42,902 nucleotides of DNA, from positions 1 through 42,902 of the IMG/VR virus record IMGVR_UViG_3300044711_000031; one strand, 5' to 3'. Shown in pieces: positions 1 through 42,902 of this stretch; positions within the stretch are counted from its first letter, which is position 1; the number at the start of each line of letters is the position of its first letter. The notes under the pieces are model-generated. The model did no database searches and had not been told where the DNA came from. It worked only from the letters and a program-made list of their open reading frames with translations. This DNA comes from a virus (taxonomy: Duplodnaviria; Caudoviricetes). The position numbers and the translations under genes were made by a program.

Positions 1-127
1 CCTGACGCGTGCCACCCTGACGGGTGCCAACCTGACGGGTGCCGACCTGACGCATGCCAACCTGACGGATGCCGACCTGACGCATGCCAACCTGACGCAT
101 GCCAACCTGACGCATGCCAACCTGACG
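1..127. repeat. Terminal direct repeat (127 bp, identical to 42776-42902); probable circular-assembly overlap
   Basis: First and last 127 nt match base for base; 127 is a common assembler k-mer size. Confidence 0.9.
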
Positions 128-571
128 GATGCCACCCTGACGCATGCCAACCTGACGGGTGCCGACCTGACGCATGCCAACCTGACGGGTGCCAACCTGA
201 CGCATGCCAACCTGACGCATGCCGACCTGACGCGTGCCAACCTGACGCCAATCCGCGACGATATTTGGGCTGTCCTATGCAGTGCTCCTGCTGAAGCTCC
301 CGCGCTTCTCCAAGCGCTGAAAGACGGCAAGGTCAACGGAACGGCCTATGAAGGACAATGCGCCTGCCTAGTAGGAACAATTGCCAATGCCCGCCATTGC
401 AACTACGAAGAGATTCCGGGGCTCAAGCCGAATGCCTCACGCCCGGCTGAGCGCTTCTTCATGAACATTAACAAAGGCGACACGCCGGAAACTTCGCAAT
501 CCTGCAAGATCGCTGCGGAGTGGGTCGAGGACTTCATCACGCGCATGACAGCGGCATTCGGAGCAAAGTAG
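1..571 (+). CDS. 3' part of pentapeptide-repeat protein (begins at 42537, crosses the circular join)
   Basis: Frame from base 2 reads A(N/D/T)LT(H/G/R/D) repeats, then ...GKVNGTAYEGQCACLVGTIANAR...; stop TAG at 569-571. Confidence 0.85.
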   Translation, partial: LTRATLTGANLTGADLTHANLTDADLTHANLTHANLTHANLTDATLTHANLTGADLTHANLTGANLTHANLTHADLTRANLTPIRDDIWAVLCSAPAEAPALLQALKDGKVNGTAYEGQCACLVGTIANARHCNYEEIPGLKPNASRPAERFFMNINKGDTPETSQSCKIAAEWVEDFITRMTAAFGAK

Positions 572-1465: not shown

Positions 1466-2089
1466 ATGACGATCACTGAAGTTTTGCAACTCTACCCGCG
1501 AACCAAGGCCGAGAATTGGAAACAGCATCCTAACGGCGAGGGCTGGATTCACGAAGACGCCAAGGTATCACCTAAAGCGTTCATTGGTCCGCGTGTCGCT
1601 GTGCGGGGCGGCACCATCTGGGGCGGCACCATCGAGGGCGGCACCATCGAGGGCGGCACCATCTTGGGCGGCACCATCTGGGGCGGCACCATCGAGGGCG
1701 GCACCATCGAGGGCGGCACCATCGAGGGCGGCACCATCGAGGGCGGCACCATCTTGGGCGGCACCATCTGGGGCGGCACCATCGAGGGCGGCACCATCGA
1801 GGGCGGCACCATCGAGGGCGGCACCATCTTGGGCGGCACCATCTTGGGCGGCACCATCTCCGAAAACGCCATCATCAAGATTGGCGAGGACTATGTGACG
1901 CTCCTGAGCGTTGCCGAATGGGGAGCAATCACCGGACACAGAACGACGGATGGTTGGGTTATCGTCTGCGGATGCCGCCGATTCACTTTGGCCGAGGCAA
2001 TGGATCACTGGAAGGATCGCGAGGACCGAGCTGGAACCAGAATGGCCGTAGATGTTATCGCACAGATCGCCAAAAAACGTGGTTGGTAG
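1466..2089 (+). CDS. GGTIx-repeat beta-solenoid protein
   Basis: ATG 1466 after GAGG; 17 GGTI(E/W/L/S) units; C-terminal ...IVCGCRRFTLAEAMDHW domain. Confidence 0.85.
   Translation: MTITEVLQLYPRTKAENWKQHPNGEGWIHEDAKVSPKAFIGPRVAVRGGTIWGGTIEGGTIEGGTILGGTIWGGTIEGGTIEGGTIEGGTIEGGTILGGTIWGGTIEGGTIEGGTIEGGTILGGTILGGTISENAIIKIGEDYVTLLSVAEWGAITGHRTTDGWVIVCGCRRFTLAEAMDHWKDREDRAGTRMAVDVIAQIAKKRGW
1607..1861 (+). repeat. 15-bp tandem repeat x17 (GGCGGCACCATCnnn)
   Basis: Directly visible; the first 12 nt of each unit are invariant. Confidence 0.95.
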
Positions 2090-2500: not shown

Positions 2501-2808
2501 CCCACCTACTAGATCAAGCCGACGAACGCGCAGAACTGGACGGGGAGGAGTACGATGACTACCTAGCTGTAGCTGGTGTAGCGTGCATTTGCCTGACCTG
2601 TGGCGAACGATCGACCGTGGACCCGCACAATTTAGACTCCTCCAGATACCGGATGCTATGCGGGGCTTGTGGCAAGCACATCATGGTCGAGGATGAGATA
2701 AGCCCTGAGACTTGGGGAATCCTACTTTGCAAGCGCATGGGCCATCACGGATGTATCGCCAAGGACACCACGGGCCATGAGTGGCATTTTGAAAGGGAGG
2801 CAGTATGA
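2497..2808 (+). CDS. Zinc-ribbon hypothetical protein
   Basis: CLTC...CGAC; translationally coupled on both sides. Confidence 0.75.
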   Translation: MTHLLDQADERAELDGEEYDDYLAVAGVACICLTCGERSTVDPHNLDSSRYRMLCGACGKHIMVEDEISPETWGILLCKRMGHHGCIAKDTTGHEWHFEREAV

Positions 2809-3074
2809 GGCAAGTCAGCGAGAAAAGACGCCGAGCGCATCAGAACGCTTTCGATGCGGCAATGAAGGTCATGGAAGCACGCAAGGAAGCCAAGGCTGAT
2901 CACATCCTCAAGGCCGAGAAATCCGTCTGTGGATTAGCCAAGGAGTGGCGTGCTTTTAAGACCGGGTACTTAGATCCACGGTGCGTTGCTGGCAAACTGG
3001 TAGCGGCTATTGACGAGCTAATAAAAGCTGAGAGTGAACAAGCCCTAGACCAAACCAAAGCCCCACACAAATAG
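2805..3074 (+). CDS. Hypothetical protein
   Basis: GGAGG RBS; ATGA overlap. Confidence 0.7.
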   Translation: MRQVSEKRRRAHQNAFDAAMKVMEARKEAKADHILKAEKSVCGLAKEWRAFKTGYLDPRCVAGKLVAAIDELIKAESEQALDQTKAPHK

Positions 3075-3078
3075 CACT

Positions 3079-3634
3079 TCTAGGTCTGTAGTATTACAGG
3101 CACACCACTGCTGCTCTGGGTCTTCCCGTGCGCTGTTTCCGATGTTCTGGAAGTAAGCCCTAACGAGTAGCCAGTTTGTATCCCGAATGTTCTCCCAGCA
3201 CAGTGCGAACCGTAGTGTTGTTCTCCCCTGACCCGTCGCTTTGAGGGAGAATCACGGGCGTGGTCTTCCCGGTGTCGAACGTCGAGGATAGCGTTACCGC
3301 GTCCTCGCGCCTCCGTCGTGGTCTTTGCTGGCACGCTTGCAGGCAGGAGTGGAGCTTTGAACACTGTGCTACGTGCGTATGTTCCGACAGAGCTTCTACG
3401 TGAGTTTGCTGGGATGCTTGTTGGCGTGGATTTATTGGCCTTGTGGAAGAACTGGTGGTTCGCGACACGCCGTGCTGGTCCAAGGTTTGCATGATAAACC
3501 GCTCGCAAGACCATGATGCAACGGGTGGAAGGTGAAAGTCAAGCGGGACGTTGGCGTAGATGACTGTGCGAGCAGTTTACCTTGGCTCCGCCCCGCTTGC
3601 CGATCCTGCGCCACTGGGGTAGCGCAAGCCTAGA
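3079..3634 (-). ncRNA. Candidate large structured ncRNA (~555 nt); strand uncertain, minus favoured
   Basis: No credible CDS between convergent genes; more than 10 complementary segment pairs including an end-closing helix and crossing pairings; GUAA tetraloop and two G-U-completed helices on the minus strand. Confidence 0.65.
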
Positions 3635-3735
3635 GTAACACAAATTTGCCACGGTTCAAATTTAGCGACGGTACGCGGCCTACGTCGCTGCTACGATAAC
3701 CTTCCATGTTGGATGTCCGTAAAGCATCACCTCCT

Positions 3736-4179
3736 TTACTGCACTGTCTCTGAGGTGCTGTCGTATTGCGCTCGCAGGATATCTGCATTCCAGAGCCTAC
3801 GAACACCCATACCAAGCATCTCCACGTTAACCGAGTTGCGGCGAAGCTGGCCGATCATCCCATTAACAGCAAGAACGGTTCGACCCATCTCCGCCGCGAT
3901 TGTTTCCGCAGTGGCCTTGTCCTTTCGGCGGCGGATCAAGTATTCCACTTCGGATTGCGTCCAAAGCTGATTGCTTCGATTCGCCCGATGTCCGCGAGTC
4001 CTGCGTTTCATCGGAACACCGTTGGTCCGAAGGCGAACCACCATCTTGCTAATCGCAAATCGGGTGTGTCCCATTGACTCGCAGATATCATCGAGTTCAA
4101 CTCCTTCATCCCACTGCTTCATCAGCGTCTTGATTTCTTCATCCGTCCAACGATGTCCGTGCTGCGCTTTCATTCCCAT
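3736..4179 (-). CDS. Tandem Myb/SANT- or GcrA-like HTH DNA-binding protein
   Basis: Two repeats, WTDEEIKTL... and WTQSEVEYL..., each followed by an IxxxMGxT helix-turn-helix. Confidence 0.75.
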   Translation of the reverse strand: MGMKAQHGHRWTDEEIKTLMKQWDEGVELDDICESMGHTRFAISKMVVRLRTNGVPMKRRTRGHRANRSNQLWTQSEVEYLIRRRKDKATAETIAAEMGRTVLAVNGMIGQLRRNSVNVEMLGMGVRRLWNADILRAQYDSTSETVQ

Positions 4180-4221: not shown

Positions 4222-4389
4222 TTACTTCAGTGAATTGAGCCAGTCGAGGGATTCAATAGCCTCAACCTTCCAGACTCCGTAGGTCGCCCGAATATCTGGA
4301 GATACCCGTTCTCCATGAAGACTAATCAAGTCCTCAATCATCAACAGACGCGCTTCCACCGCCTTGATTGCTGTTTCTCGTGGTGTCAT
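4222..4389 (-). CDS. Hypothetical protein
   Basis: ATG 4389 overlaps the upstream stop (ATGA). Confidence 0.55.
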   Translation of the reverse strand: MTPRETAIKAVEARLLMIEDLISLHGERVSPDIRATYGVWKVEAIESLDWLNSLK

Positions 4390-5549
4390 TTGCTGCGTTC
4401 CTGAACCTGCTTCCACATGCCATCGAGCCAGTTGATCACCCAATCAGCGTCCTTGCCTTCCTTCAGAGCCTCCATCACCACCTTATCCAGTTCCGCCGCG
4501 TTGTATTTCAACTGACGGCCAAGCGCGTAGATATGGCAGCTTTGCGACATGGTTAGCTCAGGACACTCGAAAAGGATGCCTCCGGCCTTCCGGCTAGTCC
4601 AATACAGTTCTTGCGCCTGGAGGAGCTTCAGGAACTTCTCTTGCTCCGCTGGTGCCGTGATCTGGTTGGAGTGCTGATACCCCGGGCCAAACTCCCTGAG
4701 AAGCTGGTAATAGCGCTCCTCATTGCCGTCGCACGCATCCACCATGCTATCCCGCAGCTTCTTGACCTTGCCGAGCCACAGGTAATTTGCGGTCTTTGGC
4801 TTCGCCTTCCCCTTGGTGGTTTCGGGGATTGGATCTTCGGCTAAGTCAGCGGGGGGTTGCGGATCGCTTCCCGGAGCGACCGGGGCTGCATCCAACATGG
4901 TCGAATCTTCCGGCGATGCCGAAAGGACACTCCCCCCGCCTTTGTCCGAGCCGTCGCCCGAACCTCGTTGCCGCTCTATCGCGGCGAGCTTTTCATTCTT
5001 GACCTTTTCGCGTTCTTCCTTCGATCCTGAATCATTCCAACCGCCCTTGCCGGGAAGCTCCGACTCATCGAGCATTCCGAGGCCGCAATGTCCCAAGATG
5101 GCCCTGCGCTTCGCCTTCGTCGCTGCCTTCATCATGGCATTGCAAAGAGCTTCCCCGGAGAGTCCCTTGATGTTGACAGCACCAAGATCGTCGGTGACTC
5201 GCGTATCACCCGGAGCACTAGCACGAGCCTGAACAACGTAAACATCCCCCGGCTGCGCTCCCTGCTGGATGATGATGGCCGACAACTGCCGCTTGCTCGC
5301 AAGCTGATTGGCGCATTCCTTCTTGGCGTAGAGAACTAGCTTGCCTTGAAGGGAGATCAGATCGAAGGGCTGAGTCGCCGGGTCAAGGTCGAGAAGCTGG
5401 CAACGATAGGCGTAGTACGCCGTGCGCTGCGGAGGCGTCAGCCCGGACAGATCACCCTTGACCATCAACTGCTCAATCAACGCCTGCGGCAACACCACAG
5501 ACTGCTTGGGAACCACATTGCTCGAAACTACCGCAAGCTCATTGCTCAT
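4386..5549 (-). CDS. ssDNA-annealing recombinase (RecT/Red-beta-like)
   Basis: GDLSGLT...LDPATQPFDLI.LQGKLVLYA...NAMMKAATKAKRRAIL annealing-domain pattern, then a disordered linker; GGAGG RBS before ATG 5549. Confidence 0.75.
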   Translation of the reverse strand: MSNELAVVSSNVVPKQSVVLPQALIEQLMVKGDLSGLTPPQRTAYYAYRCQLLDLDPATQPFDLISLQGKLVLYAKKECANQLASKRQLSAIIIQQGAQPGDVYVVQARASAPGDTRVTDDLGAVNIKGLSGEALCNAMMKAATKAKRRAILGHCGLGMLDESELPGKGGWNDSGSKEEREKVKNEKLAAIERQRGSGDGSDKGGGSVLSASPEDSTMLDAAPVAPGSDPQPPADLAEDPIPETTKGKAKPKTANYLWLGKVKKLRDSMVDACDGNEERYYQLLREFGPGYQHSNQITAPAEQEKFLKLLQAQELYWTSRKAGGILFECPELTMSQSCHIYALGRQLKYNAAELDKVVMEALKEGKDADWVINWLDGMWKQVQERSK

Positions 5550-6723: not shown

Positions 6724-6753
6724 AAGGTAGCAAACAAACTTAGCACTTGTCAA
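6724..6753 (-). promoter_or_regulatory. Sigma70-type promoter TTGACA-N18-TACCTT with TGn extension
   Basis: Near-consensus boxes in the AT-rich gap between divergent operons. Confidence 0.7.
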
Positions 6754-8610: not shown

Positions 8611-9144
8611 TTGAGAAAATCTTTTCGTAAGCTGGTTTTGGCACGTGATCGTGGCATCTGCCAGAAGTGCCGAGCCGACTGCGCCACGCTAGAATCTGTT
8701 CTGTATTCCTGCCTCAACAAACTCAGCCATGAAGAATCTGCTGTTCTAATACACGCCTTGGGGCGTCGAGCGGCCAAGTTCCCCAATTCGTCTCTGTGGG
8801 AAGCGGATCACATCATCCCGTTGGCCGAGGGAGGATCTGACACGTTAGCCAATATCCGCACGCTGTGTCTCGATTGTCATTTCCACGAAACTTCGATGAT
8901 AGTCCGGCGCAAGAAGGCCCCGGCTCCGAAGTCTCCAGTCCGACGAGAATTTGAATGGACCAACGACTTCCCTTACCCCGAGTCCGAGAGACTTGAGGAC
9001 GCCTATGCGGGACGAATGGACAATGACGATATTCAGGAGCGAGCGGGTTCAGAGGCTTTCGATGAGTATGTGCGAGAGGACGCACATACAGATCGTATGT
9101 GCGAAATGGGCACATACAAAGAGGGAGCACCGCACATACGCTAA
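8611..9144 (+). CDS. HNH endonuclease (McrA-like, zinc-binding) with acidic tail
   Basis: RDRGICQKC...WEADHIIPLAEGGSDTLANIRTLCLDCH; start TTG 8611 after GGAGG (ATG 8599 is an alternative). Confidence 0.85.
   Translation: MRKSFRKLVLARDRGICQKCRADCATLESVLYSCLNKLSHEESAVLIHALGRRAAKFPNSSLWEADHIIPLAEGGSDTLANIRTLCLDCHFHETSMIVRRKKAPAPKSPVRREFEWTNDFPYPESERLEDAYAGRMDNDDIQERAGSEAFDEYVREDAHTDRMCEMGTYKEGAPHIR
9066..9139. promoter_or_regulatory. Five 8-bp GCACATAC/GTATGTGC boxes (iteron- or operator-like)
   Basis: GTATGTGC at 9066 and 9095; GCACATAC at 9082, 9110 and 9132. Confidence 0.7.
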
Positions 9145-9770
9145 TGGCAAACTGGACCATGCGCGTGCCGGACTCTTTGCTAGCCAAGGCTAAGATTGCG
9201 GCTGCTTCGCAAGATATTGAATTGTCTGAGTTTACAAGGAACTCATGGCGCAAGATAATACGCTCATCGGAGCGAGCAAGGAAGGCTCAGATTGAACCTG
9301 TCGAGGAAGTCAAAAACGGAAACGGAACAAGAAGAACTACTTCCAAAACTACAGACCTAGAACCAAAACATAACCCTTCTTCGGTAGGGAAGGATTTTGC
9401 TGTTCAGCTTTCGGGTAAGATCCGAGAGAACAACCCAAACTGCAAGCCTTTCACAGAGAAGCAGCTTTCGGATTGGGCGCATGTGGCCGATTTGATGATG
9501 GCCAGGGATGGAAGGTTGGCCCCCGACATTGAGGCCGTGATCGAATGGTGTCAGTCGGATTCGTTCTGGAAAAGCAATATCCTGAGCATGGGTAAGTTGC
9601 GTGAGAAGTTCGATCAGTTGACGCTGAAGATGAAGAATCCGATCGCCAACAAGTCGTACAAATCTGCTCCTGTTTTGTCGGCTCCGGTTCGCTCCGAAAT
9701 GACAGAGGAGCAATGGGCCGAATGGCAGGCTCAGGAAGACCTACGATGCAAGCAGATGGGACTCCTATGA
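9144..9770 (+). CDS. Replication initiator-like protein: N-terminal RHH-like segment plus lambda-O-type C-terminal domain
   Basis: WAHVADLMMARDGR...DSFWKSNILSMGKLREKFDQL matches the O-protein C-terminal pattern; N-terminus NWTMRVPDSLLAKAKIAAA...LSEFTR. Confidence 0.75.
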   Translation: MANWTMRVPDSLLAKAKIAAASQDIELSEFTRNSWRKIIRSSERARKAQIEPVEEVKNGNGTRRTTSKTTDLEPKHNPSSVGKDFAVQLSGKIRENNPNCKPFTEKQLSDWAHVADLMMARDGRLAPDIEAVIEWCQSDSFWKSNILSMGKLREKFDQLTLKMKNPIANKSYKSAPVLSAPVRSEMTEEQWAEWQAQEDLRCKQMGLL

Positions 9771-13329: not shown

Positions 13330-13443
13330 ATGGTGCAGTTGGCGGAGTGGCCTAACGCTGATCTGTAGTAAAGCGGGGGAAAAGTCGCTACAGCGCTGCA
13401 AGTACCTCGCTCGCAGGTTCGAGTCCTGCACTGTGCCGTACCA
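13330..13443 (+). tRNA. Non-canonical tRNA-like RNA (no assignable anticodon)
   Basis: Acceptor ATGGTGCAGT/ACTGTGCCGT followed by ACCA; D-arm GCG-GAGTGGCCTAA-CGC; T-arm GCAGG-TTCGAGT-CCTGC; 54-nt aberrant centre. Confidence 0.75.
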
Positions 13444-39374: not shown

Positions 39375-39647
39375 CGTTTCGCACTGCAAAACACAGCCCT
39401 ATTTCGACAATCACCGAAATTCAAAGCAAATTTATTTTCTCCACGTTTTCAACAACTTCCAAATCACCCTCTTGACATCAGAAAAAACTTCAAGCACAGT
39501 ACCTCTGTGTAGCTCATAAGCCCCGACAGGGGCGTTGAGCGGAGCCGCTTTACTTCTTGGAAGCTCGTAATTTGCAGTAGCGACACAAGAACACCGAAGC
39601 GGATCACTCCAGTGGCCACTTGCACATCAATCGAACAATCAGAAACA

Positions 39648-39663
39648 CGTTCCACGTGGAACA
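39648..39663. promoter_or_regulatory. parS: parS-like palindrome CGTTCCACGTGGAACA
   Basis: 15/16 match to the chromosomal parS form TGTTCCACGTGGAACA; intergenic. Confidence 0.7.
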
Positions 39664-39861
39664 TTGCACCACCATAACATCTAGTTACCAAGTAGTACCG
39701 GATTCTGATTCCACTTCATTTCAGTTCTGGGCCTATACACCCCATTCACCTGGCGGCAGGGGTGATCCACGGGGCCTGAGAAATGGGACTCCCGGAGCTG
39801 GAATTACCTGAGCAGTAACACCGCAAGCGAAAGCGAAGCGAATACCAAACCTGAGTATGAT

Positions 39862-42536: not shown

Positions 42537-42902
42537 ATGAAAATAGAAATTAAAAGCTGGTGGAACGGATCAGTACTATTTGAGGGTGATTTTTCCTGCA
42601 TCGCGGAGGCAGTATCGGCGGCTGTGCGATCGCGTGCCAACCTGACGGGTGCCAACCTGACGCGTGCCACCCTGACGCGTGCCACCCTGACGCATGCCAA
42701 CCTGACGCGTGCCACCCTGACGCATGCCGACCTGACGCATGCCACCCTGACGGATGCCGACCTGACGGATGCCGACCTGACGCGTGCCACCCTGACGGGT
42801 GCCAACCTGACGGGTGCCGACCTGACGCATGCCAACCTGACGGATGCCGACCTGACGCATGCCAACCTGACGCATGCCAACCTGACGCATGCCAACCTGA
42901 CG
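42537..42902 (+). CDS. 5' part of pentapeptide-repeat protein (continues to 571 across the join)
   Basis: AAGGAG RBS; MKIEIKSWWNGSVLFEG...AVRSR, then ANLTG/ATLTR/ADLTH repeats. Confidence 0.88.
   Translation, partial: MKIEIKSWWNGSVLFEGDFSCIAEAVSAAVRSRANLTGANLTRATLTRATLTHANLTRATLTHADLTHATLTDADLTDADLTRATLTGANLTGADLTHANLTDADLTHANLTHANLTHANLT
42776..42902. repeat. Terminal direct repeat (copy of 1-127)
   Basis: Exact match to window start. Confidence 0.9.

What the first reader, a model, noticed from the sequence alone, without database searches (positions are those of the whole stretch)
3079..3634. Candidate new large ornate phage ncRNA (~555 nt, several pseudoknots)
Seen: the longest gene-free stretch of an otherwise tightly packed early region, dense in complementary pairs (plus-strand coordinates). 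End-closing 3079-84/3629-34; 3086-90/3095-99; 3110-16/3165-71; 3283-88/3302-07 capped by GCG-GUAA-CGC on the minus strand; 3423-28/3466-71; 3480-85/3580-85 stacked on 3495-3507/3567-79; 3607-14/3619-26. Crossing pairs: 3125-30/3253-58 and 3540-47/3592-99. Overlapping alternatives: 3193-3200/3407-14 versus 3197-3205/3362-70. GGGAAGACC and GGGAGAACA each occur twice on the minus strand. Known: large ornate RNAs of similar size (ROOL, GOLLD, OLE) exist, and ROOL and GOLLD occur in phages. I could not see group I/II intron, RNase P or tmRNA signatures. Inference: a structured RNA of possibly undescribed class, probably at the 3' end of the leftward Cro-RusA-RecT-Myb operon.
Basis: partly seen in the sequence, partly recalled or inferred. 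Interest (0 to 1): 0.88.

Follow-up and report, generated by a model that had tools for sequence, protein, structure and literature searches.

The report
Orphan pseudoknotted phage non-coding RNA candidate
A 661-base gene-free gap in an uncultured phage likely encodes its own folded RNA: the first 150 bases are predicted to form an unusually strong pseudoknot behind a promoter-like site, it matches no catalogued RNA family, and no relative was found, so its full length, expression and job are all untested.

Summary
The signal is strand-specific and local. On the minus strand, 3480-3634 holds a 10-bp hairpin and two crossing helices of 11 and 15(+4) bp. The whole gap beats 897 of 900 shuffles, and this part is the top 155-nt window of the genome. 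A sigma-70-like site places +1 at the hairpin's 5' arm (about 3625), which would exclude the proposed end-closing helix. A 9-bp loop-loop pairing (12 of 400 shuffles) may tie in the next 250 nt. The 3' 400 nt alone show no excess, but neither do real ROOL, tmRNA or RNase P in this test. There is no Rfam match, no tRNA or tmRNA, and no convincing coding frame. No homologue turned up in any collection, so covariation is untested; expression could not be checked. Verdict: probable minus-strand structured RNA (about 0.7 for the 5' domain, about 0.45 for the full 550 nt), of no known family. It most likely works like ROOL/GOLLD, as a folded trans-acting RNA, but it is not a member of either.

The parts
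3075..3735 (.). Gene-free gap between the rightward early operon (last ORF 2805-3074) and the leftward operon (last ORF 3736-4179)
   Evidence: ORF map; internal ORFs score as shadow frames or are explained by chance
3079..3628 (-). Candidate non-coding RNA, predicted +1 near 3625; 3' end unknown, tentatively near 3080
   Evidence: Helix excess on minus strand only; ends inferred, no transcript data
3632..3659 (-). Promoter-like site: TTGAAC, 16 nt, TG-n-TACTCT (extended -10)
   Evidence: Tied at rank 16-18 among all positions of both strands with my own weights, set after I had seen the site; same pattern as the leftward control-region promoter at 6729; not listed by the standard scan
3664..3689 (-). 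7+2-bp hairpin or DNA palindrome between the HTH gene and the promoter-like site; possible terminator or operator
   Evidence: Fold; no U-tract; function inferred
3605..3628 (-). 5' hairpin, 3628-3619 with 3614-3605, 10 bp (2 G-U)
3540..3599 (-). Pseudoknot stem 1, 3599-3589 with 3550-3540, 11 bp (1 G-U)
3480..3585 (-). Pseudoknot stem 2, 3581-3567 with 3507-3493 (15 bp, 2 G-U) plus 3585-3582 with 3483-3480; crosses stem 1
   Evidence: Strongest helix of the gap, -27.5 kcal/mol stacking; the folds with either stem alone are within about 1 kcal/mol of each other
3231..3526 (-). Long-range loop-loop pairing, 3526-3518 (pseudoknot loop) with 3239-3231 (loop of hairpin 3251-44/3228-21), 9 bp
   Evidence: 12 of 400 shuffles of the 3' part give as strong a partner, 2 of 400 an enclosed one, 0 of 400 both; criteria set after seeing it
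3221..3251 (-). 8-bp hairpin that presents the loop-loop strand
   Evidence: Pair probability 0.93 with the loop strand held open
3283..3307 (-). Hairpin capped by GCG-GUAA-CGC
   Evidence: Pair probability 0.99-1.0
3311..3392 (-). 8-bp helix 3392-85/3318-11 closing a subdomain
   Evidence: Pair probability 0.90
3193..3211 (-). Segment with three competing partners (3371-61; 3414-07; 3478-70 plus 3463-57); unresolved
3120..3270 (-). Four GGGARRAC copies (3270, 3227, 3196, 3127); 4 of the genome's 6
   Evidence: fair post-hoc test 11 of 400 shuffles, but 6 of 72 other genome tiles also have some 4-copy motif
3086..3099 (-). Small 3' hairpin, 5 bp
   Evidence: probability 0.75
3078..3092 (-). 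15-nt exact copy of plus-strand 9348-9362, in the linker of the replication-initiator-like gene; may be chance
   Evidence: 84 of 2000 shuffled gaps have such a match and the genome holds 12 repeats of 15 nt or more
3357..3494 (+). 45-codon ORF with TTG start and AGGAG; considered and not favoured as a gene
   Evidence: Codon score 0.03; 33 of 100 shuffled gaps have such an ORF; no homologue or family
3736..4179 (-). Upstream neighbour: GcrA/Myb-like HTH protein
   Evidence: its relatives in 5 other phage loci lack the RNA

Best explanation
The gap likely encodes a self-promoted minus-strand non-coding RNA of up to about 550 nt whose first 150 nt are predicted to fold into a 5' hairpin and a long two-helix pseudoknot, and which would act in trans as a protein-free folded scaffold, in the manner of ROOL and GOLLD. 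Shown by sequence and computation: the gap, the crossing 11- and 15-bp helices, their excess over shuffles on the minus strand only, and the absence of a family match. Inferred: host sigma-70-type polymerase starts near 3625; the hairpin at +1 protects the 5' end; stem 1 forms first during transcription and stem 2 follows; a loop of the pseudoknot then pairs with the hairpin loop at 3239-3231 and draws the 3' part into one fold. Most speculative: that this loop-loop contact and the surplus purine-rich repeats (four GGGARRAC for fewer complementary sites) pair between molecules, so that the RNA oligomerises and sequesters or presents a host factor early in infection. My odds: structured minus-strand 5' domain 0.7; one RNA of 400 nt or more 0.45; ROOL/GOLLD-like self-assembly about 0.2.
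For: Top-5 helix sum -112 against -89.7 +/- 6.1 kcal/mol, 1 of 200 shuffles, better than all 146 tiled genome windows, with plus strand z +0.5. With the flanking stop codons as limits, 3 of 900 shuffles. The two best of 2030 sliding 155-nt windows are this element. In a strand-neutral list of near-perfect inverted repeats, 4 of 8 mismatches are G-U on minus, against 25 of 190 elsewhere. The promoter-like site puts +1 in the 5' arm of the first hairpin. Loop-loop contact: 12 of 400 shuffles, 0 of 400 with enclosure. The two long minus ORFs score -0.11 bits per codon against 0.10 +/- 0.08 for real genes, and have no homologue. Known large RNAs also have weak folding z (ROOL -1.0, tmRNA -1.1), so the z of -1.8 is no objection. 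ROOL and GOLLD occur in phages and assemble through kissing loops (10.1101/2024.12.08.627333, passages).
Against: No homologue anywhere, so no covariation (66/69/70, 96, 97, 132). No transcript evidence. The 3' 400 nt show no helix excess. The helix test gave no signal for ROOL, RNase P or tmRNA (z +0.9 to +1.5), so long perfect helices are not an ornate-RNA hallmark and suit a switch or processing site as well. The two crossing stems are equal in energy and each is a full turn or more, so forming both fully would need threading (own knowledge). Promoter weights, motif choices and the enclosure criterion were set after seeing the sequence. One of 8 other gene-free stretches also reaches z about -2.5. 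There is no canonical terminator at the 3' end and no adjacent tRNA island.
Confidence: 0.42

Rival explanations
1. Only 3480-3628 is functional: a short RNA or a two-state 3'-end element of the leftward early operon (stem 1 forms first, stem 2 replaces it, setting termination, processing or stability). The other 400 nt are an orphan spacer in which the two converging operons end.
For: All helix excess lies in 3480-3634. The two folds are within about 1 kcal/mol. Long, nearly perfect stems are typical of switches and RNase III sites (own knowledge). The minus strand at 3484-3385 is C-rich and G-poor, as Rho loading sites are (composition; interpretation own knowledge).
Against: The loop-loop pairing to 3239-3231, several high-probability 3' hairpins and the repeated motif suggest order beyond 3480. 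The test is blind to real ornate RNAs.
Confidence: 0.28
2. The gap is decayed or neutral DNA left by module exchange, and the helices are a chance extreme picked out after the fact.
For: No homologue. Folding z is unremarkable. A strong Shine-Dalgarno match after the HTH stop codon has no well-spaced start codon, as if a gene had been lost (sequence). About 18 gap-strand tests at p near 0.003 leave a family-wise p near 0.06.
Against: Best window of the genome, strand-biased G-U pairs and a promoter-like site at the right place and strand. The rest of the early region is tightly packed.
Confidence: 0.16
3. The gap serves DNA replication. Either the RNA's 3' end, identical to the plus strand of the initiator-gene linker, pairs with the origin template as a primer or guide, or the 15-bp copy is a second initiator-binding DNA site, as in phage SPP1 with its two origins.
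For: 15 of 15 match to 9348-9362, inside a gene matching replication initiation O-like PHROG 391. Lambda-type origins lie in such linkers (own knowledge). SPP1 G38P binds two origins 32.1 kb apart (PMC3561973, passage).
Against: 84 of 2000 shuffled gaps give a 15-nt match, and the genome has 12 exact repeats of 15 nt or more. There is only one copy and no iteron array. The origin position is itself inferred.
Confidence: 0.07
4. A type I toxin-antitoxin-like pair: the plus-strand 45-codon ORF 3357-3494 is translated, and the minus-strand RNA from 3625 is its convergent antisense regulator.
For: AGGAG 7 nt before a TTG. Codon score 0.03, above the shadow-frame mean of -0.20 +/- 0.09. Prophage type I systems pair a small hydrophobic protein with an antisense RNA (PMC6563280 and PMC5848175, abstract starts).
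Against: 33 of 100 shuffled gaps hold such an ORF, and the best 19-residue hydropathy is only 1.2, with charged residues inside. TTG starts are absent from the starts I listed for this phage. No Pfam, PHROG or NCBIfam family and no homologue.
Confidence: 0.07

Closest known systems
ROOL RNA (Rfam RF03087)
   Same: Size (average 581 nt), occurrence in phages and prophages, pseudoknots, no known protein partner (PMC5737381; 10.1101/2024.12.08.627333); weak folding z, as here.
   Different: No model match, while the model finds a true ROOL at 130 bits. No tRNA island beside it. It has long near-perfect stems that the control ROOL lacks. Six junctions and three pseudoknots cannot be shown.
GOLLD RNA (Rfam RF02032)
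   Same: Large phage or prophage RNA of unknown function, with kissing-loop contacts.
   Different: No model match; shorter than the many GOLLD members over 800 nt; not next to tRNAs.
OLE RNA (Rfam RF01071)
   Same: About 600 nt and ornate (listing; table).
   Different: No match. OLE is chromosomal with partner protein genes (own knowledge); none of the ORFs scanned was annotated as such a partner.
Operon-end RNA elements of lambdoid phages (lambda sib, HK022 put; recalled)
   Same: Long stems at the end of an early operon.
   Different: Those are short nested hairpins without a pseudoknot or an own promoter; no Rfam match here.

Membership tests
ROOL (RF03087) | Covariance-model score at or above 99.1 bits | tested here: not met
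   No match at E <= 1 or E <= 10; positive control in plasmid pMP118 scores 130.4 bits
ROOL (RF03087) | [quoted passage not shown] | not testable with these tools
   No homologue to align; one pseudoknot and one loop-loop contact are predicted from a single sequence
ROOL / GOLLD | Often beside tRNA genes in phages or prophages | tested here: not met
   ARAGORN finds none; the one tRNA-like gene lies 10 kb away
ROOL / GOLLD | RNA-only multimeric cage | not testable with these tools
   Needs mass photometry or cryo-EM
GOLLD (RF02032) | Covariance-model score at or above 150 bits | tested here: not met
   No match at E <= 1 or in cmscan; no true GOLLD was run as a control
OLE (RF01071) | Covariance-model score at or above 50 bits | tested here: not met
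   no true OLE was run as a control
tmRNA | tRNA-like domain plus tag reading frame | tested here: not met
   ARAGORN and Rfam negative; ARAGORN finds E. coli tmRNA
Group I/II introns, RNase P RNA, self-cleaving ribozymes | Rfam model match to the catalytic core | tested here: not met
   Only hit at E <= 10 is CRISPR-DR49, 18.8 bits against a cut-off of 41
Type I toxin-antitoxin locus | Small hydrophobic toxin ORF of a known family | tested here: not met
   No family or homologue; weak hydropathy
Type I toxin-antitoxin locus | Antisense RNA that represses the ORF | not testable with these tools
   No expression data
New covariation-supported RNA class | Three or more homologues with significant covariation | tested here: inconclusive
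   No homologue found; exact-pattern scans and single-sequence models have low sensitivity for distant relatives

The most novel reading that the evidence does not exclude
A new class of large phage RNA in which a pseudoknotted scaffold carries, at its 3' end, a 15-nt copy of the phage's own replication-origin linker and uses it in trans to prime, open or decoy the origin: an RNA-directed control of phage DNA replication with no known counterpart.
Probability: 0.05. Interest if true: 0.92.

Novelty: new variant of a known kind. Interest (0 to 1): 0.5.

Why it matters
Bacterial and phage RNAs of 500 nt or more with pseudoknots are rare, and several of the known ones are ribozymes or form protein-free cages of unknown use (PMC5737381; 10.1101/2024.12.08.627333). 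A sequence-unrelated example in a 43-kb phage, with its own promoter and away from tRNAs, would test whether cage formation is common to large phage RNAs, a question the cryo-EM paper leaves open. The RNA can be transcribed in vitro and tested without the host. The claim rests on one sequence, so it is a lead and not yet a class.

Tried and rejected
Homologue hunts that gave nothing. blastn against 50,697 phage and 72,556 plasmid records: only 20-45-nt chance pieces. Four DNA-pattern scans of viral contigs (119, 118, 3 and 21 loci; the first two stopped at 55 and 58 of 64 parts): no extension by blastn, nhmmer or the model. One pattern each in metagenome and genome contigs: 0 matches. Neighbour-gene routes: capsid relatives, 15 loci; HTH relatives, 5 loci (none with the single protein or in genomes); relatives of 4386-5549, 9 viral and 50 metagenome loci. 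None holds the RNA nearby. In the 29 parent viral records the best DNA match has E 0.13, and two single-sequence models match 0 of 29. An unfiltered model search of 5 of the 20 fetched stretches gave a best E of 0.034, a partial and unconvincing match. The nearest relative G001 shares the late genes but not this region.

Coding readings rejected: the 144-aa and 110-aa minus ORFs. The one phmmer hit of the 58-aa plus ORF has no local alignment. The exact look-up of ORFs is uninformative, because the presumed real neighbours were also absent.

Plus-strand RNA rejected: no helix excess. Resemblances I noticed by eye to RNase P, tmRNA, group II intron domain V, pistol and boxB motifs (recalled) found no Rfam support. 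Two T-loop-like 9-mers (3362, 3280; p 0.0025 in shuffles, motif recalled and chosen after the fact) lack proper T-stems and are left unexplained.

Expression and strain variation could not be examined, and no look-alike search by protein language model was obtained for the small ORF.

Full report
Setting. The window is a whole 42.9-kb virus record with portal, terminase and major head protein genes. The finding lies in a 661-bp gap, 3075-3735, between a rightward early operon ending at 3074 and a leftward operon ending at 3736 with a GcrA/Myb-like HTH gene. RusA is confirmed.

Checking the observation. All 12 pairings and both repeated 9-mers are where they were said to be. Much of this is what chance gives: perfect helices of 5 bp or more number 120 against 113 in shuffles (14 of 60 reach it), and of 8 bp or more 3 against 1.8 (15 of 60); only the 6- and 7-bp classes are in excess (1 and 3 of 60). 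Ordinary folding gives z +0.16 on plus and -1.80 on minus. In 120-nt windows only 3540-3659 on minus stands out within the gap (z -3.2).

A test that allows pseudoknots. Nested folding cannot score crossing helices, so I summed the strongest non-overlapping helices regardless of nesting. The minus strand gives -112 kcal/mol for the top five against -89.7 +/- 6.1 (1 of 200 shuffles), better than all 146 tiled windows of the genome; the plus strand is null. With the flanking stop codons as limits the result is 3 of 900. Of 9 gene-free stretches picked by eye, on both strands, only this one and 39375-39860 reach z below -2. The excess is local: 3480-3634 gives z -4.5 (0 of 150) and 3079-3479 gives z -0.4 to 0. 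The two best of 2030 sliding 155-nt windows are this element. In a strand-neutral list of near-perfect inverted repeats, 4 of 8 mismatches are G-U on the minus strand, against 25 of 190 elsewhere.

Controls cut both ways. A true ROOL RNA (located), E. coli RNase P RNA and tmRNA all score null in the helix test, and their folding z values are -1.0, -3.0 and -1.1. The quiet 3' part is therefore no evidence against a large RNA. But the long perfect stems of the 5' part are not a signature of ornate RNAs either.

Anatomy on the minus strand. A hairpin or palindrome at 3689-3664 follows the HTH gene. Next comes a promoter-like site, TTGAAC-16-TGnTACTCT, with its -10 box at 3637-3632. It ties at rank 16-18 in the genome under weights I set after seeing it, resembles the control-region promoter at 6729, and is missed by the standard scan. 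It predicts +1 near 3625, in the 5' arm of a 10-bp hairpin (3628-19/3614-05). The proposed end-closing helix overlaps the -10 box and would lie outside such a transcript. Then follow stem 1 (3599-89/3550-40, 11 bp) and the crossing stem 2 (3581-67/3507-3493, 15 bp, plus 4 bp). The folds with either stem alone have -35.5 and -36.3 to -36.6 kcal/mol, so this is a pseudoknot or a two-state switch; full pairing of both would need threading (own knowledge). A loop of this domain (3526-18) is complementary over 9 bp to the loop of a hairpin 290 nt downstream. 12 of 400 shuffles give as strong a partner, and none gives one that is also enclosed in a hairpin (criteria set afterwards). Further 3' helices have pair probabilities of 0.75-1.0, while 3193-3211 has three competing partners. 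GGGARRAC occurs four times within 150 nt; a fair post-hoc test gives 11 of 400 shuffles, but 6 of 72 other tiles have some 4-copy motif. No canonical terminator marks a 3' end.

Coding. The 144-aa and 110-aa minus ORFs score -0.11 bits per codon, against 0.10 +/- 0.08 for 34 genes and -0.20 +/- 0.09 for shadow frames. They lack ribosome-binding sites and have no homologue or family. The 45-codon plus ORF scores 0.03 and has AGGAG, but 33 of 100 shuffled gaps hold such an ORF and it has no relative.

Homologues. None was found by blastn in phage and plasmid records, by six DNA-pattern scans (followed up in 19, 35, 59, 69, 70), beside relatives of three of the phage's genes (followed up in 26, 48, 54, 64), or in 29 related virus records by BLAST and two single-sequence models. 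The nearest relative shares only the late genes. Covariation and expression remain untested.

An odd match. The last 15 nt of the candidate (3092-3078) are identical to plus-strand 9348-9362, in the linker of the replication-initiator-like gene, where lambda-type origins lie (own knowledge). But 84 of 2000 shuffled gaps give a 15-nt match somewhere, and the genome has 12 such repeats. I keep it as a low-odds lead. SPP1, whose origin-binding protein binds two distant origins, is a precedent for a DNA-level reading (PMC3561973, passages).

Mechanism. I favour a self-promoted, trans-acting folded RNA: hairpin at +1, pseudoknot, loop-loop contact to the 3' part, and possibly intermolecular pairing as in ROOL and GOLLD cages (10.1101/2024.12.08.627333, passages; PMC12990946, passages). 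The gap, the helices and their statistics are shown. Transcription, length, folding order and assembly are inferred. Odds: 0.7 for a structured 5' domain, 0.45 for one RNA of 400 nt or more, about 0.2 for self-assembly. Rivals: a 150-nt switch or operon-end element plus spacer (0.28), neutral DNA (0.16), a replication role (0.07), and a type I toxin-antitoxin-like pair (0.07; PMC6563280 and PMC5848175, abstract starts only).

Comparison and novelty. Rfam 15 gives no match at gathering score in the window and only a chance CRISPR-repeat hit at E <= 10. The ROOL, GOLLD and OLE models are negative (positive control for ROOL only), and ARAGORN finds no tRNA or tmRNA. ROOL averages 581 nt, has three pseudoknots and often lies near tRNAs in prophages (PMC5737381, passages); size and host type fit, model and tRNA context do not. 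Four literature searches (listings) showed no class that I could match. A survey of viral structured RNAs required at least three matching regions and reported motifs of 29-151 nt (PMC10690425, passages). I saw only the list of its supplements, some too large to read, so overlap with one of its motifs is not excluded. Earlier notes of this scan hold no look-alike sequence. Four describe similar orphan phage RNAs, one of which resolved into a small pseudoknot plus spacer; they are unchecked leads.

Verdict. Observation partly confirmed; interpretation partly supported. This is a probable new minus-strand structured RNA of a known kind (large orphan phage RNA), a member of no known family, resting on a single sequence. 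Interest 0.5.

Noticed in passing
window 13332-13440 (+): tRNA-like gene missed by ARAGORN: Rfam tRNA 25.9 bits (cut-off 29), E 0.0027. Acceptor, D and T arms are present, but the anticodon arm is replaced by about 46 nt of other structure. It lies just upstream of the endolysin gene.
   Followed up: partly
window 39375-39860 (+): Second gene-free stretch with excess strong helices on one strand (z -2.4 to -2.9, 1-2 of 80 shuffles), including crossing helices 39601-10/39759-68 and 39718-31/39791-804, a TTGACA promoter-like site near 39472 and no Rfam match. A second ncRNA candidate.
   Followed up: partly
window 39648-39663: Palindrome matching the bacterial parS consensus (recalled) at 15 of 16 positions; 5 of 100 shuffles have such a match at up to 2 mismatches. 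No integrase or ParA/ParB was identified among the ORFs scanned.
   Followed up: partly
window 3726-3735 (-) and 3680-3727 (-): A strong Shine-Dalgarno match directly after the HTH stop codon, with an ATG only 2 nt on (15-codon ORF). It can be sequestered by 3760-3752. Leader peptide or relic of a lost gene.
   Followed up: no
window 3692-3697 (+): An extended -10 match pointing rightwards, antisense into the HTH gene and back to back with the candidate RNA promoter, with the 3664-3689 palindrome between them.
   Followed up: no
window 42538-42902 and 1-570 (+): One pentapeptide-repeat gene runs across the two contig ends, so the terminal repeat reflects a circular assembly through this repeat.
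   Followed up: no
window 1469-2089 (+): ORF with a 15-nt tandem repeat encoding GGTIE/GGTIW/GGTIL units, a second repeat-protein gene in the same operon.
   Followed up: no
window 4386-5549 (-): 387-aa protein with 1170 homologues among 8000 scored candidates but no Pfam, PHROG or NCBIfam family. A widespread unannotated phage family; the RecT label is untested.
   Followed up: partly
window 9099-9770 (+): Replication-initiator-like protein with a weak N-terminal CopG/ribbon-helix-helix similarity (E 0.1), fused to an O/DnaD-like domain.
   Followed up: no
whole window: 12 exact repeats of 15-19 nt outside the repeat genes, more than the one or two I would expect by simple calculation; unexplained.
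   Followed up: no
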